Shown here in pieces: positions 24,896-51,829 of a DNA stretch of 64,000 bases (position 1 is the stretch's first letter; each line of letters starts with the position of its first letter). The notes beneath the pieces were generated by a model. That model was given only the letters and a program-made list of their open reading frames with translations. It ran no database searches and was not told where the DNA came from. Made by a program: the position numbers and the translations under genes. Where the stretch lies: NCBI GenBank assembly GCA_964291265.2, contig OZ219747.1:3520001-3584000 (forward strand). Direction: 5' to 3'. The stretch is from Alphaproteobacteria bacterium (GTDB lineage: Bacteria; Pseudomonadota; Alphaproteobacteria; SP197).

Positions 24896-24932
24896 TTGAC
24901 TTGACATCCCGTCTTGATCATGCAGTAAAATC
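24896..24932 (+). promoter_or_regulatory. Sigma70-like promoter candidate (TTGACA, 19 nt, TAAAAT)
   Basis: TTGACTTGACA at 24896-24906 and AGTAAAATC at 24924-24932. Confidence 0.45.
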
Positions 24933-25001
24933 CGCGCCACGCGCCACGCGCCACGCGCCACGCGCCACGCGCCACGCGCCACGCGCCACGCGCCACGCGC
25001 C
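24933..25001 (+). repeat. Perfect heptamer tandem repeat (CGCGCCA) x ~9.9
   Basis: Nine complete units plus CGCGCC, read directly. Confidence 0.97.
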
Positions 25002-25403
25002 CTTTACTGTATCGGCCTTACGAATGCGGGCGGGTAGCACGGCGCTTCCTGACTGAGCTTCGGCTGCCGGCAGCGTCGGCGTTCTGTCTATCCTATTTGG
25101 CCGCATGCGGCCCGGACGTGCCGCTTCGCCTGCGACCTCGTGCGCTCTCCCCGGCCCGTCTTCCACCCGCCGCGTCCGCTCGACAAGACTTGTCCCACTC
25201 CCGCCGTATCTCGGCGTCGGGCAGGTCTCCGGCATTGCCGTCGTCCGCCGGACCTCTGGCGCACCCGGCCGTCGGCATCCCCCTGACCGACTTTTGGAAA
25301 CCTAATGAGACTCAACGATGACAAACAACTTCGACCCCCGCATGCGCGGCGTCAAAAGGACGACGATGCCTACAGTGCTACAACCAGACACGGAGAATGA
25401 ACG

Positions 25404-26498
25404 ATGACGACGACAAGATGGCCTGGCAGACCGATTACTGAACTCGCGGGTCGCGATCATACTGGGGGGCGCCACCCTGAAAGAAACGAAGAGCTTTCCC
25501 TTAGTAGCGGCCATGCAACCCAGGGCGACGACTGGCTCCACGGTTACCGTGGCGACGACATCATTTTCGCCCACGGCGGCAACGACAGGCTTCACGGTGG
25601 GAAAGGCGACGACTGGCTCTATGGTTATGCTGGAGACGACCAAATCCAAGGCGGCAGGGGCGACGACACTCTGTCCGGCGGCGACGGTGACGATACTCTG
25701 TTCGGCGGCGCCGGCGACGACACGATTTACGCCCACGGCGGCAACGACAGGCTTCACGGCGGGAAAGGCGACGACCGGCTCTATGGTTATGCTGGAGACG
25801 ACCAAATCCGCGGCGGCAGCGGCAACGACACGCTGGACGGCGGTGCCGGCAACAACAGGCTTCACGGCGGCGCCGGCAACGACACGCTGAACGGCGGCAA
25901 CGACGACGACACTCTGATCGGAGGCGACGGCGACGACAAAATTTACGCTCACGTCGGCAACGACCGGCTGTTCGGCGGTAGCGGTGTCGACTGGCTCTAT
26001 GGTTATGCTGGAAACGACCAAATCCGCGGCGGCAGAGGTGATGACCATCTTTTCGGTATGCAAGGCGACGACCTGCTATATGGACTCACGGGAGACGACT
26101 TCCTCTCCGGTGGAGACGGGAACGACACTCTCCGAGGAAGCAAGGGCAACGACACGCTATGGGCCGGTAAAGGCAACGACACGCTCTATGGCGGCAAAGA
26201 CAACGACGAACTCTACGGCGACGCCGGCAACGACACGCTCTATGGCGACTCTGGCAATGACAATTTTGTGTTCAAATACAAGAGCGGCCACGATATCGTT
26301 AAGGACTTCGGCAAAGGCAATGACAAGATTTATTTCAGTCGCTCCGGCGAAAAACTGACCTACTCGGACCTGACCATTGAAGACAGCGAAACCGGTGCAG
26401 TCATCACCGGCCCGACAGACCAATGGAGCATTACGCTTGAAGGCGTAAGCGCCTCCGAGTTGACGGAAGACTATTTCGACTTCCAATACATAGCTTGA
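25404..26498 (+). CDS. RTX (hemolysin-type Ca-binding) repeat protein without catalytic domain
   Basis: Many GGxGxDxLx nonapeptides; C-terminal FVF..SGHDIVKDF...ITLEGVSASELTEDYFDF cap. Confidence 0.9.
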   Translation: MTTTRWPGRPITELAGRDHTGGRHPERNEELSLSSGHATQGDDWLHGYRGDDIIFAHGGNDRLHGGKGDDWLYGYAGDDQIQGGRGDDTLSGGDGDDTLFGGAGDDTIYAHGGNDRLHGGKGDDRLYGYAGDDQIRGGSGNDTLDGGAGNNRLHGGAGNDTLNGGNDDDTLIGGDGDDKIYAHVGNDRLFGGSGVDWLYGYAGNDQIRGGRGDDHLFGMQGDDLLYGLTGDDFLSGGDGNDTLRGSKGNDTLWAGKGNDTLYGGKDNDELYGDAGNDTLYGDSGNDNFVFKYKSGHDIVKDFGKGNDKIYFSRSGEKLTYSDLTIEDSETGAVITGPTDQWSITLEGVSASELTEDYFDFQYIA

Positions 26499-26542
26499 CG
26501 GTAGCTGCCCAGGTCTGATTTCGCCGAGCCCTCACAGAGGAT

Positions 26543-29452
26543 CAGACGTCCTGACTTCGGAAAGCCGTCTTGGGTCTGACGGAGCCCTTTTCCACAGGGA
26601 AACCAAGGGTTTTCAGGGTTTGGCGGGCTTAACAAGTGAATCTGCTGTCGAGCAAGGTACGCAACCCCACTTTCTTTCTCCAGGTGGCCCATGGACACGC
26701 TTCCCCTGTCCCCTCCCGAGGCGGTTCCGATCGGACATTCCTGCTTCTCGTTCGCCGAGAACGAACGCGGTCAGGTGGTCTATTTTTCGAACCTCGAACC
26801 CTACGACTTTCACGATGTGGACGATCGCGGCGCCTGGCTCCTGCGGGCGGCCCGCCTGGCCGAGAGCGGGGTGCGCCGAGCGGACATCCGGATGGCCTTC
26901 GGTCTCTCTCGCACGACCCTGCAGCGGGCGGTGAACCGATTGCGCGATGAGGGCGAGGCCGGCTTCCTGCAGTTCTGTCCGGTACGCGGGGTGAGCGCGA
27001 TCACGGGGGAGATGAAGGAGCGTGCGACGCGTCTGCTGGCCGAGGGGATGAGCGGTGCGGCGGTGGCGCGGGAACTGGGGCTGTCGAAGGAGACGCTGAA
27101 CTACAACCGCCGGCGCGGCCATCTTGCGCCCGCGGGTTCGGGGGACGGTGCTGCCGCTCGCGGACTTCGTCCGTGCCGCGAGGTCCCGGCGCTCTCGGCC
27201 GCGACGAAGGAGCAGGCTCTCGGTCTCCTGGCCGAGGGGAGGAGCGATGCGGCGGTGGCCCGTGCTCTGGGGATGTCGAAGGAGATGTTGCAGGCCCACC
27301 GCCGGAAGGGTCATCTGCCTTTCGCGGGAGCGGTTGGAGGCTCCGGCGTGTCCGGTGTCCGTCCGGGTGGGAGTGGCCGCGTGGTGATCACGCAGGAGAT
27401 CCGCGAGGAAGCGGACCGTCTGCTGGCCGAGGGCAAGAGCGTGTCGGCGGCGGCCCGCGAACTCGGCGTGAACGCCGCGACCCTGAACTACCATCGCCGG
27501 AAGGGTTCGATCGGCGCGGCGCGGCCGGAGGCCGCGACTGCCGGGTCCGGCCCGGATGCATCGGAGAAGCCCGATGGGCCGCAAGAAGCGTCCATGCCGG
27601 CCTGCGACACCGAGGTCTGCGGATCCCCGGCGCCGCGTCCGCTCGACCGCGCCGCCCGCGACGATCGGGACCGTTCGGCGCCGATGGGTCGCGGCGCGCG
27701 GGACGGCATGGGGCGGGTCGCGGCCGCAGTCGGAAAGTTGCCCAAGGCGCAGCCCCGGTTTGCCGAGGCCCTGTCGGCGGTGGCGCACGGCGGCGTGCTC
27801 GCGGCGCTGCCGGCGCTTCTCCGGGAGGGGCTGCTGAAGCACGCGCCCGCGTTCCTGTCATTGCCGAAGGGGTACTACGGGGTGACGAGCATCCTGTTGC
27901 TGCAGGCCTTTCTCCTGCTGGCCCGGGTGCGGAACGCGGAGGCGCTACGCTACCAGTCCCCGGGGGAATGGGGCGCCATCCTGGGTCTGGACCGCTGTCC
28001 GGAGGTCAAGACGCTGCGGAGCAAGGTTCGCGCACTGGCGGCGGATGCGGAACGGCTCACGGCGTGGCAGGCAGGGCGCTCTGGCGAGGGACTGGTGCGC
28101 GGAGGACCCGGAGGCGACCGCGACGCTGTCGGTCGACGGTCACGTGAAAGTGTATACCGGCCGCAAGGGGGTTAAGCCGAAGCACTTCGTGTCTCGTCAG
28201 AAGCTCTGCCTGCCGGCTTCGGTCAGCTACTGGGTCCATGCGCTTGGCGGCCGGCCGCTGCTGTGCTTGCATAAGAACCTCGATCCCACCCTGACCCGCG
28301 CCCTGGAACGGGATGTTCTGCCGGCGCTGGAGGAGTTGGGCGTGGCGGGGCCGGATGCACCGGATCTCACCACTGCCGACATGGCCGTGCCGGCCCTGAC
28401 GCTGGTCTTCGACCGGGAGGGCTGGAGTCCGGCCCTGTTCCGTCGTCTCGCCCGGCGCGGGATCGCGGTGATCACCTGGCACAAGAATTTCAAGGACAAG
28501 GACTGGCCGGAAGAGGAGTTCTCCCTCGAGACGGTGCCGATTCACGGCCCCGGAGGCGACCGCACGAGCAACATCTGGCTGGCCGAGAAGCGCATCCGCC
28601 TGCACGACGGTCCCGAGGTCCGGCAGATCCGCCGTCGGCTGAACGACGGCCGCCAGATCGCCCTGATCACCACGGACTTCCGCCTGTCGCGGGCCCGGGT
28701 CGCGAGTGCCCTGTTCTCGCGATGGTCCCAGGAGAACTTCTTCAAGTACGCTCGGGAAGAATTCCACCTCGACTCCCTGCCGGTGCACAGTCTGGTCCCC
28801 CAGGATCCGGACGCACAGGTCATCAACCCGGACTGGCGCAACAGGGACCGCGAGCTGCGCCGCCGCCGGCAGGCACTCGGCACGCTCCGCAACCGGATCG
28901 CCGAACTGGAACGCAAGCCCGAACCCTCCAACGCAATCCTCCGGAAAGTCGGACAACTGCAGGCCGAGAAGGAGACACTCGAAGCCAGGATCAAGACCCT
29001 GCAACAAGAACGCAAGGAAACCCCGAAGTATGTCCGGGTCAAGGATCTCAGAGACGATCAAGCCCTCGATGCCCTGGCGTCCCGGGAGAGGCACTGGCTC
29101 GACATCCTGCGCATGATCGCCTACCGCGCCGAAACCCGGATGATGGCGGCCGTGGCCAGGGAGCAGGGCAAGAAACAGCGACCGCGAAGACACCTTCGCG
29201 CACTCCTGCAGGCCGACGCCGACATCCTCCCCGACCCCGAACGGGGCATCCTCCGGGTGCGCATCCTCGGAACCGCATGCAACGCCAGCGATGACGCCAT
29301 CGCAGGGCTGCTGCAGGAACTCAACGATACCCGCACACGCTTTCCAGGAACCGAACTCCGCATGGTCTACGAACTGCCCGAGAAGCCCACCTGAACGGCC
29401 ACCAAGGGTTCACACTTCTTGATCGCCAACACTCCCGAAGTCAGGACGTCTG
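26543..29452 (+). mobile_element. Insertion sequence, 2910 bp, 18-bp perfect terminal inverted repeats, 5-bp target duplication
   Basis: CAGACGTCCTGACTTCGG (26543-26560) / CCGAAGTCAGGACGTCTG (29435-29452); AGGAT at 26538-26542 and 29453-29457. Confidence 0.92.
26691..29394 (+). pseudogene. Large putative DDE transposase with multiple N-terminal HTH repeats, one frameshift
   Basis: ORFs 26691-28175 and 28045-29394 join if the duplicated GCAG (28067-28074) is removed; motifs SVDGHVKVYTG, LVFDREGWS, RWSQENFFKY. Confidence 0.8.
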
Positions 29453-29639
29453 AGGATGGATTGATGGTTCCGATCTGGTGGCGCCGACAAGCGCTCGGTC
29501 ACGCAGTGATAGGGACATAGTGGAACTGAGCGAATGCGTGCGAGATCCGGGACGGTGCGTGAGTGCCACCGTCATCCTCATCATCGTCACCCATTGACCG
29601 AACACTTTCCCGGGCCTGGAGGGCCCAACAGGATTCGCA

Positions 29640-29979
29640 TGGATCCCGAGCGAGTCACTCCTTCGTTCCTTCTCGTCGGCTCGGCTGTCTCGCTCGCCTG
29701 GTTCCGGCAACCGGGCCTGATGGGACGAATCGATCCTCAGCGCCCTGCATGGATCCTCCCGATTGCGTCGGTGTTTTCACGGCGATCATGTTCACGCAGT
29801 TCCATGCCTGTCAGCGCCCTGACACGGCCAGGGTGGGAATTGTCCCCCGGATCGCGGTGATGGCTGGAATCGCCAGTACCGGGATCCTGACCGTCGTGCC
29901 CGCCGGCCGGCGAGAGGCCACCGGAGTCGTTCTCGCCTGCTCGTCGGCATTCGTCTTGAACAGGGCACCATGGCGCTGA
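29640..29979 (+). pseudogene. Eroded DMT/EamA transporter C-terminal remnant
   Basis: DTARVGIV..IAVMAGIASTGILTVVPAGRREATGVVLA resembles the last EamA helices; frame broken. Confidence 0.4.
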
Positions 29980-29998
29980 CCGCCGATGGGGGGCGACG

Positions 29999-31234
29999 CT
30001 ACGCCAGCAAGGCGTCCTCATAGGGGAAGGTCGACAGGCGCTGAACGCCAGTGTCGGTGACGAGAACCTGTTCCTCGAGCTTGACACCCTCAAGACCGTC
30101 TTCGGCGCCAATGTAGCTCTCGACACACAGTGTCATGCCGGGCTCGATGACGCCGGTCGAGGAACGCTGCGGCGTGTCCGCGAAGGAGATCGAGGGATAC
30201 TCGTCGACAAGGCCGACTCCGTGGGCGGCGATGCCATACCTGCGGGCACGGAATTCACGCGGAACCGGCCACGATCTTTCGGCGGCTTCGACAAAACTCA
30301 TGCCCGGTTCGAGAATGCCGATGTTGAACTGGACCTGCTCGAAGGCAAGCGCGTAGAGCCGGCGCTGCTCGTCCGTCGGTCGTCCCGGACCGCAGAACCA
30401 GGTGCGGCTGATATCCGCGCAATAGCCGAAGGGGCCGACAAGATCGGTGTCGAGACCGATGAGTTCGCCAGCACGGATCACCCGACTCGAGGCCTCGCGG
30501 AACCAGGGATTGGTCCTGCCTCCGGATGCGAGAAGTCGGGTCTCTATCCACTCGCCGCCGAGTTCGATGTTCACCTGGTGGAGAATCGACCACAGAGCCG
30601 TCTCGCTGATGCCGGCGCGGAGTTCACCGCGCATCCTTGCCATGGCCGCCTCGCACACGGAGATGGAAACCAGCATGGCCTCGATCTCGTCCCGGGACTT
30701 GATCACCCTGGCGCGTTCCGTCACGCGTGTCCCGCTGGCGATCTCGTAGCCCATCTCCTGGAGGGCGCCGGCGCCCTCGAAGTCGAGCCGGTCGGCGGCG
30801 ATGCGCCGGCCGGCTCCATGGGCGCGCATCACGGAATCGATATCCCGGGCCCAGGCCCTGACCCGCGCCTCGATGTTCTCCGAAGCCACCATGTAGATGA
30901 AGCCCAGAGCCGGTCTGATCTCGCCGATGGTCTCCAGGTGCCGGTAGAGATGCATCGACTTCTCGTAATCGAAGAGGACGGCCTTGCCTTGGGCTGGAAC
31001 GAAGCAGTAGCGGATCGGGTTGTGGGTGAACCACACCTGCATGTTGCTGGAACCGGTGGCATAGCGGATGTTGACCGGGTCGTAGAGAATGATGCCACCC
31101 AGATCGAGGCGGTGAAGCTCACCCTGGATCCGCTCCAGGCGCCAGGCGCGCATGCGGCGAATGTCGATCTGCGGTTCGGCGTCGTGCTGGGCAATGCCCG
31201 GAGTGTTGCGTGCCAGGCGTATGGCGTCGTTCAT
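29999..31234 (-). CDS. M24 (Xaa-Pro peptidase fold) protein, DddP-like
   Basis: DPVNIRYATGSSNMQVW..HN, GGEWIETRLLASGGRTNPWF, DTDLVG..G.C.DISR, RYG..AHGVG, CVES, KLEEQ, YPY. Confidence 0.85.
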   Translation of the reverse strand: MNDAIRLARNTPGIAQHDAEPQIDIRRMRAWRLERIQGELHRLDLGGIILYDPVNIRYATGSSNMQVWFTHNPIRYCFVPAQGKAVLFDYEKSMHLYRHLETIGEIRPALGFIYMVASENIEARVRAWARDIDSVMRAHGAGRRIAADRLDFEGAGALQEMGYEIASGTRVTERARVIKSRDEIEAMLVSISVCEAAMARMRGELRAGISETALWSILHQVNIELGGEWIETRLLASGGRTNPWFREASSRVIRAGELIGLDTDLVGPFGYCADISRTWFCGPGRPTDEQRRLYALAFEQVQFNIGILEPGMSFVEAAERSWPVPREFRARRYGIAAHGVGLVDEYPSISFADTPQRSSTGVIEPGMTLCVESYIGAEDGLEGVKLEEQVLVTDTGVQRLSTFPYEDALLA

Positions 31235-31246
31235 GTCACATGCCCA

Positions 31247-32497
31247 TCATCCAAGCAGCGCCTCATCGAACGGGTATGTCGAGAGACGCTGGGGACCTGA
31301 CCGGGTCACAAGGATCTGCTCTTCGAGCTTGACACCCTCGTTGCCGTCCTCGGCGCCGATATAGCTTTCGACGCAGATGGTCATGTTCTCCTCGAGAACA
31401 CCGGGCATGGCCAGGTCGGCCTTGTCGGAAAACGTCAGGCCCGGCCACTCGTCGGCCATGCCGACGCCGTGCGCCATGGAACCGTATCGTCGCGCCATGA
31501 ATTCGTTGGGAACACGCCAGGATGACTCGGCAACATCCCGGAAGGTCCGGCCGGGGCGCATTTCCTGGATGTTGGTCTCGATCTGCTCATGGGCATAGGC
31601 ATAGAGCCGCCTCTGCTCCTCCGTCGGCTTGCCGGGACCGCAGAACCAGGTGCGCGAGATATCGGAACAGTAGCCGAAGGGTCCGATGAGATCCGTGTCG
31701 AAGGCCACCAGCTCGCCGGCCCGGATGATGCGATCGCTGCATTCCCTGAACCACGGATTGGTCCGGCCGCCGGAAGCCAGAAGTCGGGTCTCGATCCATT
31801 CGCCGCCCATGGCGATGTTCACCTGGTGGAGATGCGACCACAGCTGGTTCTCCGTGATCCCGGCGCGCAGGTTCTCATGCATCCTCGCCATCCCCGACTC
31901 GCACACGGAGATGGAGACAAGCATCGCCTGGATTTCGTCGTCGGACTTGATGGACCGGGCGCGCTCCATGACTTCCTGACCGTTGGCGATGGTGCAGCCT
32001 CTCTCCTCCAGCGCCCGGGCACCGGAGGGATCGAGATGGTCGGCGGCCAGAGTGAGGTCGCCTCCCGAGGTCTCGCGGATGACATCGACCAGTTCATCCG
32101 CCCACAGGCGGACCCTTTCCTGGTAGGTGTCGCCGGCGCCGAAGTAGGTCCAGGTGCGCGCGGGACGGACCTCGCGGATGGTCTCGAGGTGTTCAGACAG
32201 GTGAACGGCCGGAGGATAGTCGAAGAGAACGGTTCCTCCTTCGGCCGGGACCCAGCAGTACCGGTGCTGATTGTGCAGGATCCAGACCTGCATGTTGCTG
32301 GAGCCGTTGGCGTAGCGAACATTGATGGGGTCATAGAGAAGCACGCCTGCGAGAGAGCGTTCCTTCAGCATCTCCTGGACCCTGCCGAGACGGTAGCGGC
32401 GCATCCCCGGAACATCGATCTGGGGCTCGGCATCGTGCTGGGCAATCCCCGGGGTGTTGCGGGCAAGGTACTGACTGTCTGGAGAAGGTCGGAGCAT
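31247..32497 (-). CDS. M24 protein, DddP-like paralogue
   Basis: Same motif set (FDTDLIGPFGYCSDISR, HGVGMADEWP, KLEEQ, YPFDEALLG). Confidence 0.85.
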   Translation of the reverse strand: MLRPSPDSQYLARNTPGIAQHDAEPQIDVPGMRRYRLGRVQEMLKERSLAGVLLYDPINVRYANGSSNMQVWILHNQHRYCWVPAEGGTVLFDYPPAVHLSEHLETIREVRPARTWTYFGAGDTYQERVRLWADELVDVIRETSGGDLTLAADHLDPSGARALEERGCTIANGQEVMERARSIKSDDEIQAMLVSISVCESGMARMHENLRAGITENQLWSHLHQVNIAMGGEWIETRLLASGGRTNPWFRECSDRIIRAGELVAFDTDLIGPFGYCSDISRTWFCGPGKPTEEQRRLYAYAHEQIETNIQEMRPGRTFRDVAESSWRVPNEFMARRYGSMAHGVGMADEWPGLTFSDKADLAMPGVLEENMTICVESYIGAEDGNEGVKLEEQILVTRSGPQRLSTYPFDEALLG

Positions 32498-32625
32498 CGG
32501 CTTGCTGTCCCCGTCACATGATTGTCATGGAACGGACGATCAAAGGGAGTGTCAATCGCAAAAGTGCGATCGCTTCAGAGCGACCTGGGGTACAATCGCC
32601 GCACGTGTGGAGGAAGGAGAAGGCG

Positions 32626-34149: not shown

Positions 34150-34156
34150 TCCCCTT

Positions 34157-36225: not shown

Positions 36226-36230
36226 GCCGT

Positions 36231-41232: not shown

Positions 41233-41294
41233 GCTCTTGAAGACTGCCGATGGTCCCTCATAATGCATGGTGGACCGCATGAAGGATCCATGAC

Positions 41295-41828
41295 GTGAAA
41301 CACTTCCTGTCCGCCCTGGCACTCTGCGTTCCAGTCATGGCCCATGCCGACCTCGCGGGCGATCCCATGGTCCTGGACGGTGACACCTTGAGTTTCGGTG
41401 AGAAGGAGGTCGATCTCTTCGGCGTGCATGCGCCGACCATCACGCAGACCTGTGGCGAGAGTGGCCGTGTCTGGTCATGCGGCTGGGAAGCGGCCCTCCA
41501 TCTTGAGGAACTCGTCAGCGTCGGAAATGTCGTCTGTGTCGAAATCCCTGACAGCGGTTCGCCGACGCCTCTGGCCCGTTGCACCGCTGATGGAGTCGAT
41601 CTCGCCGGGCAGATGATCGATGCCGGACTGGCGGTGCGCGACGAGACCCTGGGCGATGACTATGCCGAGCGCGAACTGGCGGCCGCAACGCAGGAGCGGG
41701 GAATCTGGGCCGGCCCCTTCATCGACCCCGTCACGTGGGCCGAACGGGCCGGATGCGCCTGCAGTGCCCGCAAGAAGGCGCTGGCGGAGTCCGCCGCCCT
41801 GCTGAAGGACGAAAAAACGGCGGAGTAG
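41295..41828 (+). CDS. Secreted thermonuclease (SNase-like) family protein
   Basis: Signal peptide, VLDGDTL, LFGVHAP..QTC, GIWAGPF..P..W. Confidence 0.8.
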   Translation: MKHFLSALALCVPVMAHADLAGDPMVLDGDTLSFGEKEVDLFGVHAPTITQTCGESGRVWSCGWEAALHLEELVSVGNVVCVEIPDSGSPTPLARCTADGVDLAGQMIDAGLAVRDETLGDDYAERELAAATQERGIWAGPFIDPVTWAERAGCACSARKKALAESAALLKDEKTAE

Positions 41829-41861
41829 CGCGATCATTCGCGGATTTCGACCTCCCTGCCG

Positions 41862-43061
<1,200 letters not shown>

Positions 43062-43212
43062 GACAACATCCTTCCCCACCGGACCCCACCATACCCCGCG
43101 AGGGGCGCTGCGCCACCAGGTCCGGCATCCCTGCCTGTTGCCACGACAGCGGGACGCCGTGCATCATGTCCGACGATGTCGATCACAACACCGACTCCAG
43201 GAGTTGAGAGAG

Positions 43213-44150
43213 GTGGATCACGAGTGGCTTCGGGACTGGTTGTTTCATGTTGATGAGTTGACTGCAGCGCAGCGCAAGGCAGTGGCGGCAACGCTTTCGG
43301 AGCGGGCGGAGGGTGTGGACACGCTGGCAGCGATCGAGCCGGGAGTGGGTGGCGAGCGACGTTGCCCGCACTGCGGCGTTGGCGGGGCTGCGTCTCGGGG
43401 CAAGGCGCGCGGTCTGCAGAAGGACCTTCGGCGCGCTCACGGGCACGGCGTTGTCGAGGCTGAACCAAGGGGAGCGCTGGCTGTCCCTCGTCGCTTCGCT
43501 TGCCGAGGGCGAGACGATCAAGGATGCACCGTGCGCTGCGGGATTGCACCGAACACGGCGCATCGCTGGCGCCACCGCTTCCCGACAACAGTCAGGCAGA
43601 CGCCGGAGCGGCTTGCCGGGATCGTCGAGGCAGACGGGGCCTTCGTTCCAGAGAGCCGGGACGCGCAGCGGAAGCTCGACCGCAAGCCGCGCCGGCGTGG
43701 CGGCAAGGCCAGGAAGCGCGGCCTCTCGTGCGAGCAGGTGCCGGTCCCGGTCACCGCTCGCAATCACGGTGTGATCCTCGGCCAGACCCTGACGGGGTTT
43801 AACGCAGACAGCGTGAAAGCGGTGCCGGGACCGGTGCTCGCCCCGGATACCCTGCGGGTCTCCGGCGCCAACCGCTGCTGTCCGCCCGTCGCGGCGGCGC
43901 TCAACATCCCTCACGCAAGCATCAACACCTCTGGCGGCGAGCGAGTCTGGAACACCATGCACGTTCAGACGGTCAACAGCCGCCGTGGCCAGATTGAGGA
44001 CTTCCTGCTCAAGCGGCGCGGCATCGCCACCAAGTACCTCGACAGCCATCTGCGATGGTTCCATCTCATCGAACGCGCCGACCAACCATCGCCAGGACCC
44101 TGTTGCCAACCGTGCCAAACCAGGGGCGCCAACTACCACTCCGGTGCCAT
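43213..44150 (+). pseudogene. IS1595-family transposase remnant
   Basis: CPHCG Zn ribbon, AHRWRHRF, LAGIVEAD, RGLS.EQVPV, HVQTVNS, RGIATKYLD; frameshifts and deletions. Confidence 0.8.
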
Positions 44151-44163
44151 CAGTGGGTTTCTC

Positions 44164-44295
44164 ATGATCTCCCTTCGCTCCTTGCATGCGTCCGACATAC
44201 ATCTCGCTAGTCCGCTTACAGGTCTGGCAGGCATGGAAGGCATGGCGGAGGATCGCGTTCGCTCTGCGCCGCGGACTGCCTTTGACGCGCTAGTA
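44164..44295 (+). pseudogene. Metallophosphoesterase (SbcD/YhaO-like) N-terminal fragment
   Basis: LHASDIHLASPLTGL...TAFDALV. Confidence 0.6.
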
Positions 44296-44339
44296 CCCCC
44301 CGAGGAGGGCGTGGGCGGTGGAATTCGCTGTCGTTCGAT

Positions 44340-44631
44340 CTCAACCGTCTCAGCAGCAACGCTCGCTTGCGGCGAACCAGCCCGGAAGACCCATCTGTTC
44401 GATCAACCTGTTGTCGACCGTTCGCGGGCGCGCGTGACTGGCCCGTTCACGGTAGAAGCCGTGCCAGCGCCCGTTGCAAAACCCATTGAGGCTGAGATCG
44501 ACGCCAGTTTGTTCGAGGCGTACCGCGGCACAGAGTCTCTCCCATTTGACACAGGCAACCGTGGTCGGGCTGGCGTCACAATTGTGAATAATCGAGTTGT
44601 CGAGAGCTCGACAATTGTGGAGTTGGAGTAG
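44340..44631 (+). pseudogene. Fragments of a type III-like DNA methyltransferase (Mod)
   Basis: LFDQPVVDRSRARVTGPFTVEAVPAP joined to the C-terminal AEID...YRGTESLPFD..G...IV...ES. Confidence 0.6.
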
Positions 44632-45315
44632 TGAGTGAGTGTTCCAGGAAGACGGTCGAGCATGTTGGAGACAGGCTCCTGCTTCCCCATCACTTGACGG
44701 TGTCTTCGGTCGCTATTGCCGATTTTTGCAAGCGCTGGCGTGTCATCAGATTATCGCTGTTCGGCTCGGTGCTGAGCGACGACTTCGGCAGATGGAGTGA
44801 CATAGACGTAATGGTGGAATTCGAGCCTGACGGCGTGCCCGGTATCCGGTTTTTCAGCATGGCGGCAGAGCTGTCAGTGTTGTTTGGCAGGCCTGTTGAT
44901 GTTGTAACCCTGCCTGCAGTTGAACGAAGTCCCAACCATATTCGACGAAGGGCAATTCTAGAGTCGGCCGAGGTCATCTATGCGCATGACGACTCTTACC
45001 TGCTCGACATGCTCGTCGCGGCGCGCAAGGCAATCCATTTCGCGCAAGATCTCGACTTCGCGCGGTTCGCGCAGAGCGATCTGCACCAAAATGCGATCTT
45101 CAAGGCTCTGGAAATTGTCGGTGAAGCCGCGGCCCGCATAAGCGAACAAAAAAACAAGCACACCCTGACATTCCATGGACCGATATGGTGGGACTCAGGA
45201 ACCGGTTTGTACATGTCTATTTCGAGATTGACCTGACCGTGGTCTGGAACATCGTCAGCGACGACGTTCCGTCGTTGATCCGCCAGCTGGAAAAACTTCG
45301 CCACCGGAGGTCGAG
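44631..45315 (+). pseudogene. MNT nucleotidyltransferase + HEPN (DUF86) toxin-antitoxin pair, fused and frameshifted
   Basis: LFGSVL..DF...SDIDVMVEF; YLLDML...LEIVGEAA; shift near the A7 run (45148-45154); HEPN motif RNRFVH. Confidence 0.8.
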
Positions 45316-45317
45316 TA

Positions 45318-45700
45318 GTGAGCAGAACGACGATCGACCGGCTGATCGTCAACTCTCCCTACGAAGAGCCGGCACGGCCCTGGCCCTACGGTCGAGGGTC
45401 AAGGTTTTTGATCTTGCAGAGGGCGCAGATCAGCCGGATATGTCACGGCCTCTCAAGATTCGAGGCGTTCTACGCTCCGGGCACTTTCGTGGAGATACCA
45501 CTGGCCAATCGTATCCGTGCAAGAGTGAAGGATTGGCGGAACGAGGGACATCTCGGTGCTTCGGGCGTGAGCGGTGATTGTTGGAGTGCTGGATTAATCG
45601 AAGAGAATTCGAGAGCAGGCGCTTTTTCTTCTGTCAGCTCGAGGTCGTCGAGACCCTGATCTGACTGACGGATGCAACCGATGCCGAAAAGGCCGGTCTA
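45318..45700 (+). pseudogene. N-terminal remnant of a type III-like restriction helicase (BPTD_3080-like)
   Basis: LIVNSPYEEP, IPLANRIRARVKDWR and FFFCQLE.VETLI across frames. Confidence 0.65.
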
Positions 45701-45734
45701 GTACCTGATCCACGCGACGACCGCCGTGCGCTAG

Positions 45735-45754
45735 TCCGAAGTTCCGGACGATTT
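45735..45754 (+). mobile_element. Isolated IS1634-type terminal repeat
   Basis: CTAG then TCCGAAGTTCCGGACGATTT, the reverse complement of the ends at 134-153 and 698-717 except for the terminal base. Confidence 0.7.
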
Positions 45755-45864
45755 GTCGCGGTAGGGAACCGGGTTATCCCGGTCCCCCCGCAGTCGCGGT
45801 AGGGATGCGCATTGCTGCGCACCCCCCGCACAGATCCGGACTTGGACGTTAATCCATCCGGCTC

Positions 45865-46699
45865 CTACCTCGGGTGCTTGACGGTAAACCGCTGGTCCGG
45901 CCATGGGTGGCGGATGGAGACGCGCGGCCAAAGAAGCTCGGTCATGCGCTCCAGTCGCTTCCAGTCAAAACGGTGGCGCTGGGAGCGGCGGCGGATCGCT
46001 CGCAGCCATAGGCGTTGCAGCCTGTGGCGGAACGTGCGCAGCCATCGGGTCGACCCCGGGACGGCGAAGTAGTTGAACCAGCCATGACAGACCCGCCCAA
46101 GCCACATGCCGACCTCCCATATATCGTGATGCCGTCGATTGCGAAGCACCTCCTCGATGCGCGCCAGGGTCCTTGCGACCCGTTTTGCGACCGGCTTGCG
46201 ACCAAGCCTGAAGCGTCCTCTCCGGGTCTCCGTGCAAAAGTGCGTGAAGCCCAGGAAGTCGAACGTCTCCGGCCTGCCCGTCCCGCGAGATCGCCGGTTC
46301 GCCTTAGCAAACCGGCCAAACTCAACGAGACGGGTCTTGTCCGGGTAAAGGGTGAGACCAAAGCGGTCCAGCCTCTCCCGAACGTCGCGAAGGTATGTCT
46401 CCGCATCCCGCTTGTGCTGGAACCCGACCACAATATCGTCCGCGTAGCGGACAATGATCGCTTCACCGTTCGGAACCTTCGGACGCCATGCCTTGTGAAA
46501 CCACAGATCGAGCACGTAGTGCAGAAACACGTTCGCCAGGCAGGGGCTGACAATGGCCCCCTGCGGTGTCCCCTTGCCCGTATCCGACCAGTCGGTCCCT
46601 TCCATGACGCCAGCGTTCAGCCACTTGATGATCAGCCGGATGACCCGCTTGTCCCCGATCCGTTTCCCGAGCATCGCAACCAGATGGTCGCGGTCGAGC
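45865..46699 (-). pseudogene. ltrA: Group II intron reverse transcriptase/maturase, N-terminus deleted, no En domain
   Basis: GTPQGAIVSPCLANVFL, RYADD, FDFLGF, GWFNYF; stop abuts DV. Confidence 0.9.
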
Positions 46700-47912
46700 C
46701 TTGATCCGGTTCTCCATGTCTCCCCGAGCACAGTACAACTGCTCATAGAGTTCCCGAGCGCCGACCTCCTTCCTGGGGATGGTCGTCACGACATAACGAG
46801 CGTTCTTGCCGCGCGGTCCCGGTAGCCATTCCGCCTTGGCCACCACTCGCCGCTCGCGGGACCATGACTTCTGCGTGCGATACCGCAGATCCCGATACCG
46901 TCTGGATGGCTTGCCGGACACCAGACAACGCCGCCTCGACTTGTTGAGTGCCTTCGTGACCATGCTGTTCAAGCGAGGATTCTGACCATATCCAAAGACA
47001 TAGTCGACACCATGGTCCTCGCACCAGACCATGATGTCGTCCGTGCCGAAGTCACAATCCCCCCGCACCACGATCCGTGTCCGGGGCCACGTGCCGCGGA
47101 TCTGCTCAACGATCCGTGACAGCTCATCCACCGAGCCATCCGCCGCGCCATGGTCGGCCGTCCGCAAACGGCAGCGCAGGATGTGCTCGCCGCAGACGAC
47201 GAAGAGCGGCAGGAAGCAATGGTGGTCGTAATAGCCGTGGAAGTACTTGCCCTCCTGGTCGCCATGCACCGGATCGTCGGTGGCATCAAGATCCAGAACA
47301 ATCTCCTCGGGCGGTGCCGCATGGCTCTCCAGAAACAGGTCCACAAGAAGACGGTCCAGTGCTTCGTGATCGGCCACGATCTTCTTGTAGCGGTCCAGGC
47401 TCGCCTCATTCGGATCGCCGAGTTCCAGGCGGTTCAGCGTGCTCGAGGCCGCCAGCACATGTCCACGGTCCCGCTCGCGAACCCGTCTCGCTCCCTCCAC
47501 ATCGTCGATCCCGCAAGCCAGGGCCAGAGCAGGGTCGTCACGCAGACGGTCATGATCGTTGAGATCCTCGTAACCCGGAGCCAAAGCGATGATGCGCTGC
47601 GCCACCAGTGTCGTCACATCGTGTTCAATGCGACTGGGATCACGATAATCAACAAAAGCGTCAGCAACACGCTCCGTCACGTTGAAAAGCCTGTCTGCTT
47701 CCCGCAACAGAAGCGCACCACCGTCGGAGGTCATGCGGCCACCATCGAAATTGGCCACAATCTGCCGCCGTCCGAGACCTTCAAACTCCAGTTGTTGTGC
47801 TGAACACTGTGTCGCCATGTGGATGGGCTCCTTGGTGCGTGTAACTCATTGGTCTTATTCATATATCACAAACCCCATCCCCATCAATAGGAAACTTGGT
47901 GACAAATCCGGG
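46700..47912 (-). mobile_element. IS1380-family element, 3'-truncated, inside the intron (transposase starts at 47818)
   Basis: FDGGRMTSDGG, GYEDLNDHD.LR.DP, LDLDATDD.VHG.QEG, VRGD, YCARGDMENRIK; left end CCCGGATTTGTCACCAAGTTTCC. Confidence 0.9.
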
Positions 47913-48290
47913 TTAGTTCCTTTCCTCTGCGGCCCCTCCACGACAGAGGGACAATTGAAAGACCTCCCAGGTCCCGGTGGACTGCTTCGGCGCGTGCCAT
48001 GGTTCTCGGACCCCGCGGAGCCCCTGCTCGCCTCACCAACGCGGCACACAGGGTGTTGCCTTCGGCCCATTGGACGACCTCGGCACTCCGGTTTCACAGT
48101 ATCTCGGGCCTCAATAACCCGGCCCACGCCTGCCGCTCGCCAACGCTTCGCCTTACGCCTCACGACGCACGACGCATGGTTCACGGAGAAAGCGGTGGTT
48201 AGCCTCTCTTCGTGCCGGGACTTGCACCCGGCAACATTCCACCAGTTTGCCTGGCGCACCCGAATGGCCTCCGCCACCAGCTGACCTGCC

Positions 48291-48500
48291 TCATCCGGTA
48301 AGACTCCACCGATCAGGCTGACCGGTGGTCTTCGCCTCGCGTGCACCTGCAAAGTGATCGAGTGCGGCGGCAAACTTGTCGCGGCAACCGGGATTGCAGA
48401 AGCCGACGACATCGCCATTGAATTCAATGAGTGAGTCGGCGGCGACCGGATCTCCCGACCAAGGGCAGGTCGCGTTGATGCAGTCGTCGGGCTTGAGCAC
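48291..48500 (-). CDS. Small YHS/TRASH-like metal-binding protein
   Basis: INATCPWSG.PV, VVGFCNPGCRDKF; GAGGAG RBS before the GTG at 48500. Confidence 0.7.
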   Translation of the reverse strand: MLKPDDCINATCPWSGDPVAADSLIEFNGDVVGFCNPGCRDKFAAALDHFAGAREAKTTGQPDRWSLTG

Positions 48501-48514
48501 GAAACCAAGGCTCC

Positions 48515-48949
48515 TCAAGTGGAGGACCAGGAGAAGTTACCGGATTCGTCCAGTGGTGAGAAGGGATTCCATGCCACTTCCCAGATGTGCCCATCGGGGT
48601 CGCGGAAGTATCCGGAATGGCCGCCCCAGAAGACATCCGCCGCCGCCTTCATGAGCGTGCCTCCTGCCTCGACGGCCTCGTCGAGAACCTCTGCCACTGC
48701 ATCGCGGGACCGCACGTTGAAGGCAAGCACGACGCCACCATTCGCTTCACATGAGAGATCACCGAGCTCCATCTCCTCACGGAACCGGTGACGCGGATAG
48801 AGGGCAAGACCGATCCCGTTGAGAGTGAAGCAGACGATTTCGTTGGCCGCCGTCTCGCTTGCCGCGCGCCAGCCGAGCGCTTCATAGAAGGCCCGCGCCC
48901 TTGCCAGGTTATCAACTGTCAGGGTGATGATGCTGAGTCTCTGTTCCAT
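48515..48949 (-). CDS. VOC/glyoxalase family protein
   Basis: MEQRLSIITL.V..LARARAFYEALGW, FWGGHSGYFRDPDGHIWEVAWNP. Confidence 0.92.
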   Translation of the reverse strand: MEQRLSIITLTVDNLARARAFYEALGWRAASETAANEIVCFTLNGIGLALYPRHRFREEMELGDLSCEANGGVVLAFNVRSRDAVAEVLDEAVEAGGTLMKAAADVFWGGHSGYFRDPDGHIWEVAWNPFSPLDESGNFSWSST

Positions 48950-49179
48950 GGTTCATCTGGCATGCCTGAATCGCAGGGGTTTGCCGTCCCTCCGGTGCAA
49001 TGCTGGGTCTCTCAGAACGACGGTGACCTCAACCATGCGACTCACTGTTGTTTCCGAATCTGTCAGTGCCGTCCAGACAGGACGGGAGTACGGAATCATC
49101 CGAGGCACCGATTGTGCAAGTCCTGCAAGCGTCCGGAGGAAACACCCGCAACGCCATGGATTTGCGGGTCGGCCTCTCC

Positions 49180-49600
49180 CGTCACGCCATCCGCGACGAC
49201 ATCATCCCCGGCCTGTTCCTGCGCGTCTTCCCCTCCGGCGCGCGCAGCTTCGCCCTCGACCGCATGATGCGCGGGCGCAGGCGTTCCGATACCCTCGGCG
49301 GCGCCGACACGATGACGGTCCCCGAGGCGCGGCGCGAGGCCCGCAGGCTCATCGCCGACACCGCGACCGGGGACGGCGGAGCGACCCGTGGATGCCTTCG
49401 CCAATGGGTTCCTCGGCCGCGCGGCCGGCATTGGAAACCCCGGACCCGAGAGCATGGTGCCGGATCGTCTACAGGTACATCCTGCCCGCTTTCACCCACC
49501 TGACCGTGGACGCCATCACGGTCGAACAGGTTCGGGACTTACTCGCCTCCGTGGCCGGCACGTTCACGTTGCCAACCTGCCGGTGCTGTCCATGATGGCG
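49180..49600 (+). pseudogene. Tyrosine integrase remnant (arm-binding domain plus part of the core-binding domain)
   Basis: IRDDIIPGLFLRVFPSGARSF, TLG...MTVPEARREAR, RHWKPRT, ILPAFTHLTVDAIT. Confidence 0.7.
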
Positions 49601-49648
49601 CACGGAACGACGGTTGCAGACGCCACCAAGGCCGGTCATCCAGAAAGG

Positions 49649-51763
49649 TCAGCCCAGAAAGTCGAAATCGGCTGCGGTGATTTGCGACGCCTGGATGCCC
49701 TCCAGCGTGATCGATCCGCTATCGTAGGTGATGACCGTGTCATCACCCGACTGGACAATGGTGAGATCATCGAAACTCATGACTTCACGCCAGTATTCGA
49801 CGACACGGCGGCCGTCCTCCAAGTATCTGGTATAATGTGAGGTCCTGATGTTGATGATGTCCCGGCCGTCCTGAAAGTCGACGATCGTGTCGTTGCCGTT
49901 GTCCCCGTCCCACTGTTCCCCCCTGTGGGGAACAACGGCGCCGACGCTCAGTAAGGTATCCATGTAGTCCACCATGTCGTCGTCGTCGCCCGGGGAAGCA
50001 GCAAAGACAAACCGGTCATTGCCGCCGCCGCCCTTGAGGGTGTCGTCGCCGGCAGCGCCGAACAGCCGATCGTCGCCGTCGCCGCCCTTGAGGGTGTCGT
50101 CACCAGCATTACCGTAGAGGTAGTCGACACCCCTTCCGCTTTCGAGGATGTCGTCACCGGCCCCGCCACGGAGGTGGTCGTTGCCAGCGCCGCCGTAAAG
50201 CGTGTCGTCGCCGTTTTCGCCATAAAGGTAGTCGACGCCGTCGCCGCCGTCGAGGTAGTCGTCGCCGTCTCCGCCATAGAGGACGTCGGTGCCATCCTCG
50301 TTGTCGCCGCCATAAAGCGTGTCGTTGCCGTCACCGCCATAGAGGTCATCCTTGCCGGCGCCACCGTAAAGCGTGTCGCCACCGCCGCCGCCGGTGAGGA
50401 TGTCGTCGCCGGCTCTGCCATGGAGGCGATCGTCGCCGTCGCCACCGGTCAGTGTGTCGTCGCCGTCACCGCCGGTCAGCGTGATGCCGCTGCCGGTCCC
50501 CACCAGGAGGAAGTCGTCTGCACCGAGGGAACCCGCCCACACGCCCGACAGGGTGATGGTGTCGCCGTCGTCGCCGTAGCGAATGATGGTATCGGTGCCG
50601 TCCTGCTCGATGACCAGCACCGCAAACTCGCCGGATACGCCATCCAGGCGAATCCTGTCGCCACCCCCGAAGTCGGTAATCGTGTCATCGCCGTCGCCGA
50701 CCGCGAACACGAAGAGGTCGCTGCCCTTGCCGCCGGCCAGCGTGTCGTCGCCGGCACCGCCGGTCAGCGTGTCGGCGCCCCTGGCGCCACGCAGGGTGTC
50801 GTCGCCAGCCTCGCCCATCAGCGTGTCATTGCCCTTGCCGCCCCCCAGGGTGTCGTCGCCAGCCCCGCCGATCAGTGTGTCGGCGCCCAGGCCGCCATAG
50901 AGAAGGTCGTCGCCGGCTCCACCGGTCAGCGTGTCGGCGCCCCCGTAGCCGCGCAGGGTGTCGTCGCCATCACCACCGGTCAGTGTGTCCGCGTCCTTGC
51001 CGCCCTTCAGCACCTCGCCGCCAGCAGGCCCGCCGCTCGAGGCGTCGCCGGACGTGCCCTGCGGCGGCGCACCCTGTGCAAGAGCGTCTGGCGAGACAGC
51101 CTCCTCGCCGCCAGTCTCCGGCGGAACCGTCTCGACGGGAAGGAACCGGAAGTCGTCCGCGCCCAGGGAGGCCGCCGTCACGCCCTCCAGCTTGATCGTG
51201 TCGCCGTCGCCGTAGCGGATGACGGTATGGAAGCCCTGCTGCTCGATCACAAGATCCCCGAAGCCGCCGGACACGCCGGCGATCTCGATGATGTCTCCAG
51301 CCTCGAAATCGCCGATGTAATCAGCCCCGTCGCCGACCGCGAACGCAAAGGTGTCATGGCCACTGCCGCCATAGAGCGAGTCCGTGCCCCGGCCCCCGGT
51401 CAGCCTGTCGACGCCCCGGCCGCCGAACAGGCGGTCGTTGCCCGCACCGCCATCGAGAGTGTCGTCCCCGTCGCCGCCATAGAGCGTGTCATCGCCCGCG
51501 CCGCCATCCAGCGTGTCATGGCCCGCGCCTCCGTCCAGCGTGTCGTTCCCCGCGCCGCCGTCCAGCGTGTCATCGTCCGAACTGCCGGGGTTCATGTCGA
51601 GAAAGTCCGCGTCGGCGCCCGGGCTTGCGGTTCCGCCCGTCAGCGTGTCGTCCCCGGCGCCGCCGGTGAGGATATCGTCGCCGAGGCCGCCGGTCAGCGT
51701 ATCGTCGCCGATACCACCCGTCAGGGTGTCGTTGTCAGCGCCGCCGATTCGCTCGATAGCCAT
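49649..51763 (-). CDS. Three-module RTX Ca-binding repeat protein
   Basis: Many GGxGDDTLx repeats; three F.F..GDG.D.I.DF...ITL.G..A..L.A.DF caps; GGAGGG RBS. Confidence 0.92.
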
Positions 51764-51795
51764 GATAGATCCCTCCAGATTCTGTTCGGAGCCAG

Positions 51796-51829
51796 ATTTT
51801 ACTCCCCCCCCCCCCCCAAAGCAAGTCAA
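51796..51829 (-). promoter_or_regulatory. Promoter candidate with a G14 homopolymer between the -35 and -10 elements
   Basis: Minus strand reads TTGACTTGCTTT-G14-AGTAAAAT; C14 on the plus strand at 51804-51817. Confidence 0.65.

What the first reader, a model, noticed from the sequence alone, without database searches (positions are those of the whole stretch)
24896..51829. Two unlinked RTX genes share a promoter motif, each paired with a different simple-sequence repeat: candidate contingency system
Seen: TTGACTTG-N20-AGTAAAATC at 24896-24932 (+) and TTGACTTG-N18-AGTAAAATC at 51829-51795 (-). Both precede catalytically empty RTX proteins, both touch an SSR (heptamer array; G14) and both lie beside mobile debris. 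These are the only long SSRs I noticed in 64 kb. Inference: a dispersed family of phase-variable secreted or surface Ca-binding proteins with a common promoter cassette, possibly for host interaction or phage evasion.
Basis: partly seen in the sequence, partly recalled or inferred. Interest (0 to 1): 0.72.

Follow-up and report, generated by a model that had tools for sequence, protein, structure and literature searches.

The report
Mobile repeat-switched RTX gene cassettes
Both genes belong to a genome-wide set of predicted secreted calcium-binding proteins whose predicted promoters carry DNA repeats that differ in length between gene copies and likely act as random on/off or volume switches, and near-identical promoter-repeat-gene units in a bacterium of another order indicate they were likely swapped between lineages.

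Summary
The two sites belong to two unrelated promoter families.

Site 2 has G14 inside the spacer (TTGCTT-17-TAAAAT), one of 7 poly-G-spacer promoters in the genome, all before RTX genes. Site 1 has (CGCGCCA)x9.9 directly behind a predicted -10, one of 6 copies of a tandem-promoter cassette that precede RTX or lipoprotein genes. SSRs lie upstream of 9 of 27 RTX ORFs versus 21 of 3,666 other predicted genes, and near-identical paralogues differ in repeat number.

Two additions. Site 1 is a 5-kb unit bounded by IS66-type MITEs and an 8-bp target duplication, absent from the congener loci examined. A genome of another order carries the same promoter-repeat-RTX units at 88-94% DNA identity (ilvD: 72%) with different repeat counts.

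Best reading: horizontally exchanged, slippage-controlled contingency loci for RTX-repeat-only secreted proteins. Switching and expression were not observed. The mechanisms are known (porA, HMW1A), and this scan noted poly-G spacer promoters before on other DNA. I found no paper on the mobile, cross-order RTX repertoire.

The parts
24626..24633 (.). left copy of 8-bp target-site duplication CCGGGCCT
   Evidence: single copy at the empty site in congeners
24634..24822 (.). left MITE (189 bp; TIR GTAAGCGTTCGGTCA, IS66-type ends)
   Evidence: same TIR type and 8-bp TSD on 2,883-bp elements encoding a PF03050 IS66 transposase
24837..24866 (+). predicted upstream promoter P1 of the class II cassette, TTGCAT-18-TATAGT
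   Evidence: sequence; conserved in 5 of 6 aligned paralogous cassettes; activity inferred
   Evidence: 19-nt spacer in 5 of 6 copies; activity inferred; not listed by the consensus scanner, which allows only 16-18 nt
24933..25001 (+). heptamer SSR (CGCGCCA)x9.9 at the predicted transcript start
   Evidence: paralogues carry related 7/8-mers at the same place, about 1.5 to 20.4 copies
25002..25403 (+). about 400-nt predicted untranslated leader; no Rfam family, no fold more stable than shuffles
25404..26498 (+). 364-aa RTX-repeat-only protein (one RTX block plus C-terminal cap)
26538..29457 (+). separate IS (Transposase_29, two overlapping ORFs) nested inside the unit
   Evidence: 99% copy at C2:2599579
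29487..29609 (.). right MITE (123 bp)
29610..29617 (.). right copy of the 8-bp target-site duplication
49096..49500 (+). integrase relic (Arm DNA-binding domain) at the 3' end of the site 2 insertion
   Evidence: PF13356 E=1.8e-8
49649..51763 (-). 704-aa RTX-repeat-only protein (three RTX blocks, each followed by a cap domain)
51772..51776 (-). predicted ribosome-binding site GGAGG
   Evidence: sequence
51796..51824 (-). predicted class I promoter TTGCTT-17-TAAAAT; a second TTG hexamer (TTGACT, 51829-51824) would give a 22-nt spacer
   Evidence: activity inferred
51804..51817 (-). G14 homopolymer forming most of the -35/-10 spacer
51927..53357 (-). flanking core gene, M17 aminopeptidase; the RTX unit is inserted behind it
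22374..24104 (-). flanking core gene ilvD

Best explanation
The two genes are members of a dispersed family of RTX-repeat-only proteins, predicted to be exported by the genome's type I secretion system, whose expression is likely switched by slippage of repeats in two different predicted promoter designs, and the promoter-repeat-gene units have likely moved within the genome and between orders. Site 2 (class I): gain or loss of a G changes the -35/-10 spacer; G14 gives 17 nt and would be ON, as in porA (architecture shown, switching inferred). Most class I copies have a second TTG hexamer 4-5 nt upstream, so two tract lengths could each give a usable spacer (inferred). Site 1 (class II): the heptamer array would be the first transcribed sequence of a 330-750-nt leader, so copy number would tune output in steps by affecting promoter escape or RNA fate (position shown, effect and direction inferred; no HMW1A-like hairpin found). 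Each cell would display its own subset of these acidic, Cys-poor beta-roll proteins, together with FN3 surface proteins switched by frameshifting poly-C tracts (class III). Site 1 arrived as a MITE-bounded unit, likely moved in trans by a resident IS66 transposase (structure shown, enzyme inferred). The selecting agent (host recognition, phage, grazers) is not determined.
For: Placement: 6 of 36 G/C runs of 9 or more sit between TTG and TANNNT, and all 6 precede RTX genes; controls 1 of 5,832 (G5-6) and 1 of 117 (G7-8); a G8 copy also precedes an RTX gene. G/C runs of 10 or more: 30 seen, 0.4 expected. SSR within 500 nt upstream: 9 of 27 RTX ORFs vs 21 of 3,666 other genes, Fisher P=2e-13, overstated because paralogues are not independent. 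Length changes faster than flanks: octamer x20.4 vs x10.4 behind 257 identical nt; G12 vs G10 with 1 mismatch in 100 nt downstream; C18 vs C11; G6 vs G9 in two G267 paralogues; heptamer x10 vs x3 in loci 93.6% identical over 2,198 nt between G000 and G267. Class III: of 6 FN3 genes, the poly-C leaves 2 in frame and 4 out of frame with the upstream ATG. One PrtD/PrtE pair over cut-off at C2:1810600-1813621, flanked by RTX genes. Site 1: 8-bp TSD round two MITEs, and 9 of 13 congener loci join 24634 directly to 29612; a second such unit (TSD 7 of 8) carries a class III FN3 gene. Transfer: the 5' 690 nt of the site 2 gene are 88-89.5% identical to four G267 genes but 80-85% to its own paralogues, and group with them at 100/100; ilvD is 72% and the aminopeptidase gene has no hit at 1e-30 in G267; only G000 and G267 match at 1e-60 among 401 class genomes, and 2 of 46 in G267's family at 1e-30.
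Against: No within-population length variation was seen. The only runs found are contig sets that drop rare variants; X1 shows G14, X3 shows no gap at the tract but ends 7 nt past it, and none spans the heptamer. There are no RNA data, so promoters and start sites are predictions, and the consensus scanner listed neither. By simple spacer arithmetic only 2 of 7 class I copies have a 17-18-nt option. The 19-nt P2 spacer is suboptimal for sigma-70. 18 of 27 RTX ORFs have no SSR at my thresholds. Many of the 51 SSRs lie near ordinary genes or inside them. mutS and mutL look intact, so no mutator state is indicated. The pattern TTG..G9..TANNNT occurs in 69 of 301 class genomes, mostly once and often matched by the reversed control, so one such site alone is weak evidence.
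Confidence: 0.78

Rival explanations
1. The repeats are neutral by-products: a few promoter-gene cassettes were duplicated by mobile elements in an IS-rich genome and their repeats drift without selected switching.
For: 15.6% of the genome lies in 25-mers present 5 or more times. Several copies are relics: a truncated RTX behind G8, class II relics with about 1.5-2 repeat copies, class III copies without an FN3 gene. The enrichment rests on about three ancestral cassettes. Long G runs vary widely among congeners.
Against: Three unrelated designs (spacer poly-G, post -10 oligomer array, coding poly-C) each sit where length would change expression, mostly at predicted surface or secreted proteins. 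Different 7/8-mer units expanded at the same position in different copies. In G267 the spacer poly-G also precedes an RTX gene with a different N-terminus (L163).
Confidence: 0.12
2. One reading: TTGACTTG-N-AGTAAAATC is one dedicated promoter cassette or regulator site shared by RTX genes, with a different SSR added at each.
For: Only 2 exact hits genome-wide, both before RTX genes. The site 2 -10 region (AGTAAAATC) differs from its class I sisters (TARAGT) and equals site 1's, so a shared origin of this short core is not excluded.
Against: No alignment between the two upstream regions. The other 25 RTX ORFs lack the motif. Each site's true paralogues differ at the shared positions outside the hexamers. 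TTG-N19-22-TAAAAT occurs at 11 places in the genome, including before non-RTX genes.
Confidence: 0.06
3. The G000-G267 similarity reflects ancient shared ancestry with loss elsewhere, or a chimeric assembly, rather than horizontal transfer.
For: Only two genomes are involved, direction is unknown, and only 2 candidate places per genome were scored in the class-wide search. G374, a congener of G267, has weaker matches (68-75%).
Against: Non-coding promoter and leader DNA is 93.6% identical while ilvD is 72%. Both sets lie at many places on single multi-Mb contigs. The genes of the two genomes interleave in the tree with two starred mixed clades, and 0 of 200 bootstrap trees kept either genome's genes together.
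Confidence: 0.08
4. The long G/C tracts are sequencing or assembly artefacts.
For: Exact homopolymer lengths in any assembly are uncertain (general knowledge). Some relatives show clustered G runs that look artefactual.
Against: An X1 contig reproduces G14 exactly. The tracts sit at one position in paralogous promoters of two genomes.
Confidence: 0.02

Closest known systems
Neisseria meningitidis porA promoter poly-G phase variation (passages of PMC7864442, citing van der Ende 1995)
   Same: Poly-G between -35 and -10 with an optimal spacing of 17 nt; the site 2 promoter has exactly this layout.
   Different: Here it is a family of 7 paralogous promoters driving RTX-repeat proteins in an uncultured alphaproteobacterium, most with a second TTG hexamer 4-5 nt upstream. 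Switching is not shown.
Haemophilus influenzae hmw1A/hmw2A (ATCTTTC)n heptamer in the 5'-UTR (abstract and introduction of PMC12721329)
   Same: Heptamer array at the predicted 5' end of a long leader before a secreted or surface protein, at several paralogous loci.
   Different: GC-rich, self-pairing CGCG/GCGC units; no long hairpin with a downstream arm; targets are RTX proteins and lipoproteins (one with a TbpB-type barrel), not two-partner adhesins.
Non-enzymatic RTX proteins: oscillin, SwmA, NodO, RsaA and the polymorphic FrpC family (passages of PMC3034196)
   Same: Nonapeptide Gly/Asp repeats, acidic, almost no Cys, no catalytic domain found, polymorphic multi-gene family, unlinked secretion genes.
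   Different: Repeating block-plus-cap architecture; below the cut-off of every NCBIfam family hit. SSR control is not described for these proteins in the passages read.
MITE-flanked mobilised cassettes (integrons, mcr-5; passages of review PMC10969869)
   Same: Cargo bounded by two MITEs, with a likely transposase in trans.
   Different: IS66-type MITE (IS66 is not mentioned in that review's text), and the cargo is a repeat-controlled surface-protein gene with its promoter, not a resistance gene.

Membership tests
porA-type spacer-tract phase variation (site 2) | homopolymer between -35 and -10 hexamers with spacing near 17 nt | tested here: met
   TTGCTT-T-G14-AG-TAAAAT; hexamers are predicted
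porA-type spacer-tract phase variation (site 2) | tract length differs between otherwise similar copies | tested here: met
   G8-G19 across 7 paralogues; G12 vs G10; G6 vs G9 in G267
porA-type spacer-tract phase variation (site 2) | reversible length change within a population | tested here: inconclusive
porA-type spacer-tract phase variation (site 2) | transcription depends on tract length | not testable with these tools
   needs reporters or RNA data
HMW1A-type 5'-UTR heptamer rheostat (site 1) | heptamer array downstream of the promoter, in a leader before a surface-protein gene, variable in number | tested here: met
   x10 vs x3 between G000 and G267 homologues of a sister locus; start site not mapped
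HMW1A-type 5'-UTR heptamer rheostat (site 1) | long hairpin between the repeats and a downstream G-rich arm | tested here: not met
   5 leaders folded; z from -2.65 to +2.56 (site 1: +0.72); repeats pair mainly with themselves or in short scattered stems
HMW1A-type 5'-UTR heptamer rheostat (site 1) | RNase III processing controls output | not testable with these tools
   experiment needed
RTX protein / type I secretion substrate | Gly/Asp nonapeptide repeats forming beta-rolls | tested here: met
   PF00353 E=4e-121 and 3e-87; model with three beta-strand blocks, mean pLDDT 59.9, no alignment; best Foldseek hits are RTX domains
RTX protein / type I secretion substrate | cognate ABC transporter and membrane-fusion protein in the genome | tested here: met
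   TIGR01842 and TIGR01843 over cut-off, adjacent
RTX protein / type I secretion substrate | functional C-terminal secretion signal | tested here: inconclusive
   conserved acidic cap ending in a D-F-x-F-like motif in most family members; export not tested
RTX cytotoxins (HlyA-like) | N-terminal pore-forming or enzymatic domain | tested here: not met
   Pfam finds only repeats; non-repeat segments are caps and linkers; NF033943 260 and 198 bits vs cut-off 1000
MITE-bounded composite element (site 1) | two MITE copies with a target-site duplication round the pair | tested here: met
MITE-bounded composite element (site 1) | empty site in relatives | tested here: met
   9 of 13 congener loci join 24634 to 29612; 4 do not show the junction; none holds an RTX gene
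MITE-bounded composite element (site 1) | autonomous partner with the same ends and TSD length | tested here: met
   2,883-bp elements with 8-bp TSD and PF03050 transposase
MITE-bounded composite element (site 1) | moves as one unit | not testable with these tools
   recombination of a MITE-bearing circle into a solo MITE would give the same structure

The most novel reading that the evidence does not exclude
A shared, mobile pool of ready-made contingency cassettes (promoter + slippage repeat + surface gene) is traded between co-occurring alphaproteobacteria of different orders and spread by IS66 MITEs. It gives each cell a combinatorial coat of RTX beta-roll proteins, lipoproteins and FN3 proteins. 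The class II cassette is a portable rheostat of a new kind (self-pairing GC-rich 7/8-mers at the transcription start, no downstream hairpin) that can be put in front of unrelated genes, including a dndC phosphorothioation gene.
Probability: 0.35. Interest if true: 0.8.

Novelty: new variant of a known kind. Interest (0 to 1): 0.6.

Why it matters
The SSR phase-variation examples in the papers I read come from pathogens and commensals of people. This uncultured alphaproteobacterium has a comparable repertoire in three designs, applied to a 27-member family of payload-free RTX ORFs and to other surface proteins. The switch appears to travel with the gene across an order boundary. If confirmed, it shows that contingency loci can be acquired whole rather than evolved in place, points to strong fluctuating selection on the surface of these bacteria, and offers a simple reporter-testable new leader-repeat rheostat. 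Ten paper searches (open-access library only) listed nothing describing this system; that is weak evidence of absence.

Tried and rejected
Sigma-70 scanner listed neither promoter; its rules are E. coli-like and limited to 16-18-nt spacers. Rfam found no family in either leader, only a group II intron part and a tRNA elsewhere. An HMW1A-like hairpin was rejected. My early idea that the 'CTCTTGA-Gn-TACGA' family is an ECF promoter was rejected: the tract lies in signal-peptide coding sequence. Sequencing runs: no RNA holder listed; 3 contig sets of one study; contigs break at the heptamer and give no lengths. Metagenome scan for the class I pattern: 6 hits, none before an RTX gene. Class II heptamer pattern: 0 of 32 family genomes; site 1 leader: no meaningful hit in them. 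The order-wide pattern search returned the same 33 genomes as the family search. Homologue search with the C-terminal 145 aa gave 396 generic RTX proteins, about 26-42% identical where coverage was full. The protein atlas did not answer, so the lipoproteins at C2:1466037 and 3258666 remain without a family. Habitat was not established: named relatives are unclassified Alphaproteobacteria MAGs and the paper search for one isolate label found nothing. Proximity to mobile DNA as a general signal was rejected; MITEs specifically are near 4 of 27 RTX ORFs vs 119 of 3,691 genes, P=0.011. No supplements were read.
Full report
Observation. Both motifs, the heptamer array (24933-25001, 9.9 copies) and G14 (51804-51817) are as described. 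The window is C2:3520001-3584000 of a 4.83-Mb, two-contig, 64.7% GC genome. The nearest named records by the aminopeptidase protein are unclassified Alphaproteobacteria or 'bacterium' MAGs at 83-87%; cultured genera follow at about 55% or less. The exact motif occurs only twice in the genome. Read as a promoter, site 2 is TTGCTT-17-TAAAAT with the G run as spacer, an RBS, and the ATG 33 nt behind the -10. Site 1 is TTGACA-19-TAAAAT followed at once by the array and about 400 nt of leader. These readings are predictions; the consensus scanner listed neither.

The two sites are not one cassette. BLAST of 180 nt upstream of site 2 and 114 nt upstream of site 1 against the genome finds no cross-hit at E=10. 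Site 2 belongs to class I: seven promoters of the form TTG..TTG(A/C)-Gn-TA(A/G)A(G/A)T with n = 8, 10, 11, 12, 13, 14 and 19, each followed by a short leader and an RTX gene beginning MAIER or MTIKR. Six of the seven have two TTG hexamers 4-5 nt apart; the spacers offered are 19/15, 20/15, 18/13, 19/14, 25/21, 22/17 and 10, so only two copies would be near the optimum in this assembly. Site 1 belongs to class II: six copies of a roughly 110-nt cassette with two predicted promoters in tandem and a 7- or 8-mer array directly behind the second -10. These are CGCGCCA x9.9 (RTX), TCGCGTC x10.3 (RTX), TCGCGCC x5.3 (lipoprotein with a TbpB-type barrel), GCCTCTGC x20.4 and x10.4 (lipoprotein-like by sequence, no family), and a relic with about 1.5 copies. 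A third class, outside the finding, has poly-C in the coding region of the long signal peptide of FN3 surface proteins; of six such genes two are in frame and four out of frame with the upstream ATG.

More than chance. With a home-made gene set of 3,691 genes and 51 SSRs, an SSR lies within 500 nt upstream of 9 of 27 RTX ORFs (4 or more repeats; 4 ORFs with fewer were dropped) and 21 of 3,666 other genes. The P value (2e-13) is overstated because the nine descend from about three cassettes. G/C runs of 10 or more number 30 against 0.4 expected. All 6 runs of 9 or more that lie between TTG and TANNNT precede RTX genes, against 1 of 5,832 shorter control runs. Eighteen RTX ORFs have no SSR at these thresholds; three of them have a G8, a 13-mer x3.6 or a 16-mer x2.9 upstream. 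Evidence that length changes: octamer x20.4 vs x10.4 behind 257 identical bases, G12 vs G10, and C18 vs C11 in close paralogues. Variation within a population was not seen. mutS and mutL are present over cut-off.

The proteins. Both consist of RTX blocks, each closed by a roughly 70-aa cap, with Gly 21-24%, Asp 16-18% and essentially no Cys. Pfam finds only PF00353 and no NCBIfam family reaches its cut-off. A single-sequence model of the 704-aa protein (mean pLDDT 59.9; C-terminus unreliable) shows three beta-strand blocks and matches RTX domains best. One PrtD/PrtE transporter pair lies at C2:1810600-1813621 between two RTX genes, so the dispersed genes are probably its substrates (inference). 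PF00353 content is patchy in the genus: 10 of 22 congeners have any match, and G000 has the most listed matches (180). Known non-enzymatic RTX proteins form S-layers, fibrils or channels (passages of PMC3034196); which applies here is open.

How the units got there. Site 1 lies in a 4,976-bp unit (24634-29609) bounded by two copies of a roughly 123-bp MITE family (51 copies by my pairing rule) and a perfect 8-bp duplication. Nine of 13 congener loci join 24634 directly to 29612, and none of the 13 holds an RTX gene. Elements of 2,883 bp with the same type of ends and 8-bp duplications encode an IS66 transposase. Of 128 end-pairs examined, 27 had duplications with at most one mismatch; most are IS66 copies, and one other carries a class III FN3 gene. 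Site 2 is an insertion behind the aminopeptidase gene: 11 congener loci show no RTX gene in the roughly 1.5 kb held, and two of them continue after about 400 nt into window 49098-48311. The insertion ends in an integrase relic. Class I-like G tracts occur in 5 of 22 congeners but before other genes, which look by eye like autotransporters, glycosyltransferases and an oxygenase (not tested against libraries).

Cross-order sharing. A class-wide pattern search (69 of 301 genomes with at least one loose match) showed nearly the same class I promoters in G267, which is of another family and absent from the window's order set. Four of six G267 sites precede intact RTX genes (three of the MAIER type), one precedes a MAIER relic followed by a lipoprotein like the class II one, and one precedes no RTX gene. 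The five sites read from G282 and G050 precede no RTX gene. The 5' 690 nt of the window's site 2 gene are 88-89.5% identical to four G267 genes and 80-85% to its own paralogues. In a 14-row tree (L160 left out as too divergent; no G374 row was recovered) it groups with the four at 100/100, and a second G000 gene pairs with another G267 gene at 100/99. The class II RTX locus at C2:511500 is 93.6% identical over 2,198 nt to a G267 locus, promoter and leader included, with 10 versus 3 heptamers. ilvD is 72% identical and the aminopeptidase gene has no hit at 1e-30. The site 1 gene itself has no such close G267 match (best 67-71%). Only G000 and G267 matched at 1e-60 among 401 class genomes, with two candidates scored per genome, and 2 of 46 genomes of G267's family at 1e-30. 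G267 has its own HlyD over cut-off. I read this as horizontal transfer of whole promoter-repeat-gene units, at least twice; the tree is unrooted and direction is not determined.

Mechanism and comparison. Class I matches the porA design (passages of PMC7864442). Class II resembles the hmw1A 5'-UTR heptamer (abstract and introduction of PMC12721329), but the defining long hairpin was not found in five leaders. It works like a leader-repeat rheostat, but I do not file it in that family. MITE-flanked mobilisation is known for resistance cassettes (passages of PMC10969869). PMC5953494 was read in passages only, for the Neisseria repertoire. Earlier notes of this scan report poly-G spacer promoters before lipoprotein and lectin-RTX genes in other genomes; I did not test them. 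Nothing had been noted on this genome or its look-alikes.

Verdict. The feature is real. New variant of a known kind; confidence 0.78 in repeat-controlled expression, interest 0.6.

Noticed in passing
L196 (G267:C1:4560237-4563474, - strand): A class II cassette with about 41 copies of the heptamer TCGCGCC, followed some 500 nt later by an ORF over the TIGR03183 DndC cut-off (DNA phosphorothioation), cut by the locus end: a possible repeat-tuned DNA-modification or defence gene.
   Followed up: partly
G000 C2:743139, 2035112, 2411939, 3114846, 3328957, 3925347 (L117-L122); relics at 1501550, 3299302: Class III poly-C tracts (C10-C19) in the signal-peptide coding region of large FN3 proteins, one with an autotransporter barrel; 2 in frame, 4 out.
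   Followed up: yes
G000 C2:3048047-3048059 (L123): A C13 tract lies at the overlap of a 1,763-aa and a 6,178-aa FN3/Calx-beta ORF in different frames, so tract length would set the length of a giant surface protein.
   Followed up: partly
G000 C2:3323751-3329400: Second unit bounded by MITE-type ends (TSD 7 of 8), carrying the in-frame class III FN3 gene; a third on C1:217609-219144 carries a 218-aa unknown gene with a perfect 8-bp TSD.
   Followed up: partly
G000 C2:3907504 (C24), 1178983 (C14), 2965180 (G10), 3782227 (G10): Long tracts upstream of or inside housekeeping-type genes: a TPP enzyme, a family 5 solute-binding protein, a carboxyl transferase and a class I tRNA synthetase.
   Followed up: no
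G000 C2:769184 (C13), 1810244 (13-mer x3.6), 3228299 (16-mer x2.9), about 3463750 (short C run in a promoter-like spacer): Further RTX genes with repeats upstream that fit neither class I nor class II.
   Followed up: no
window 24867-24925 and paralogues: Class II cassettes keep a 19-nt P2 spacer and an imperfect dyad (CGTTGCGACG in most copies, degenerate at site 1) between P1 and P2, a possible regulator site.
   Followed up: no
window 23900-24634, run X3: An 8,228-nt X3 contig (about 95% identical) aligns up to 24634, the left edge of the unit, and about 5 kb of it lies beyond without aligning: a close relative may lack the site 1 unit.
   Followed up: partly
window 45865-48508: Group II intron pieces (RT fragment, Rfam RF02005 at 48001-48224) interrupted by an IS with a DDE_Tnp_1_4 transposase.
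   Followed up: no
L015, L020, L022 (G017, G022); L021, L024 (G009): Congeners use spacer poly-G tracts before autotransporter-like and glycosyltransferase-like genes (judged by eye), which suggests the design recurs in the genus with other targets.
   Followed up: partly
G267, many places; L148: G267 has dozens of 550-nt matches at about 90% to part of the G000 IS66 element, so mobile elements may also be shared between the two genomes.
   Followed up: no
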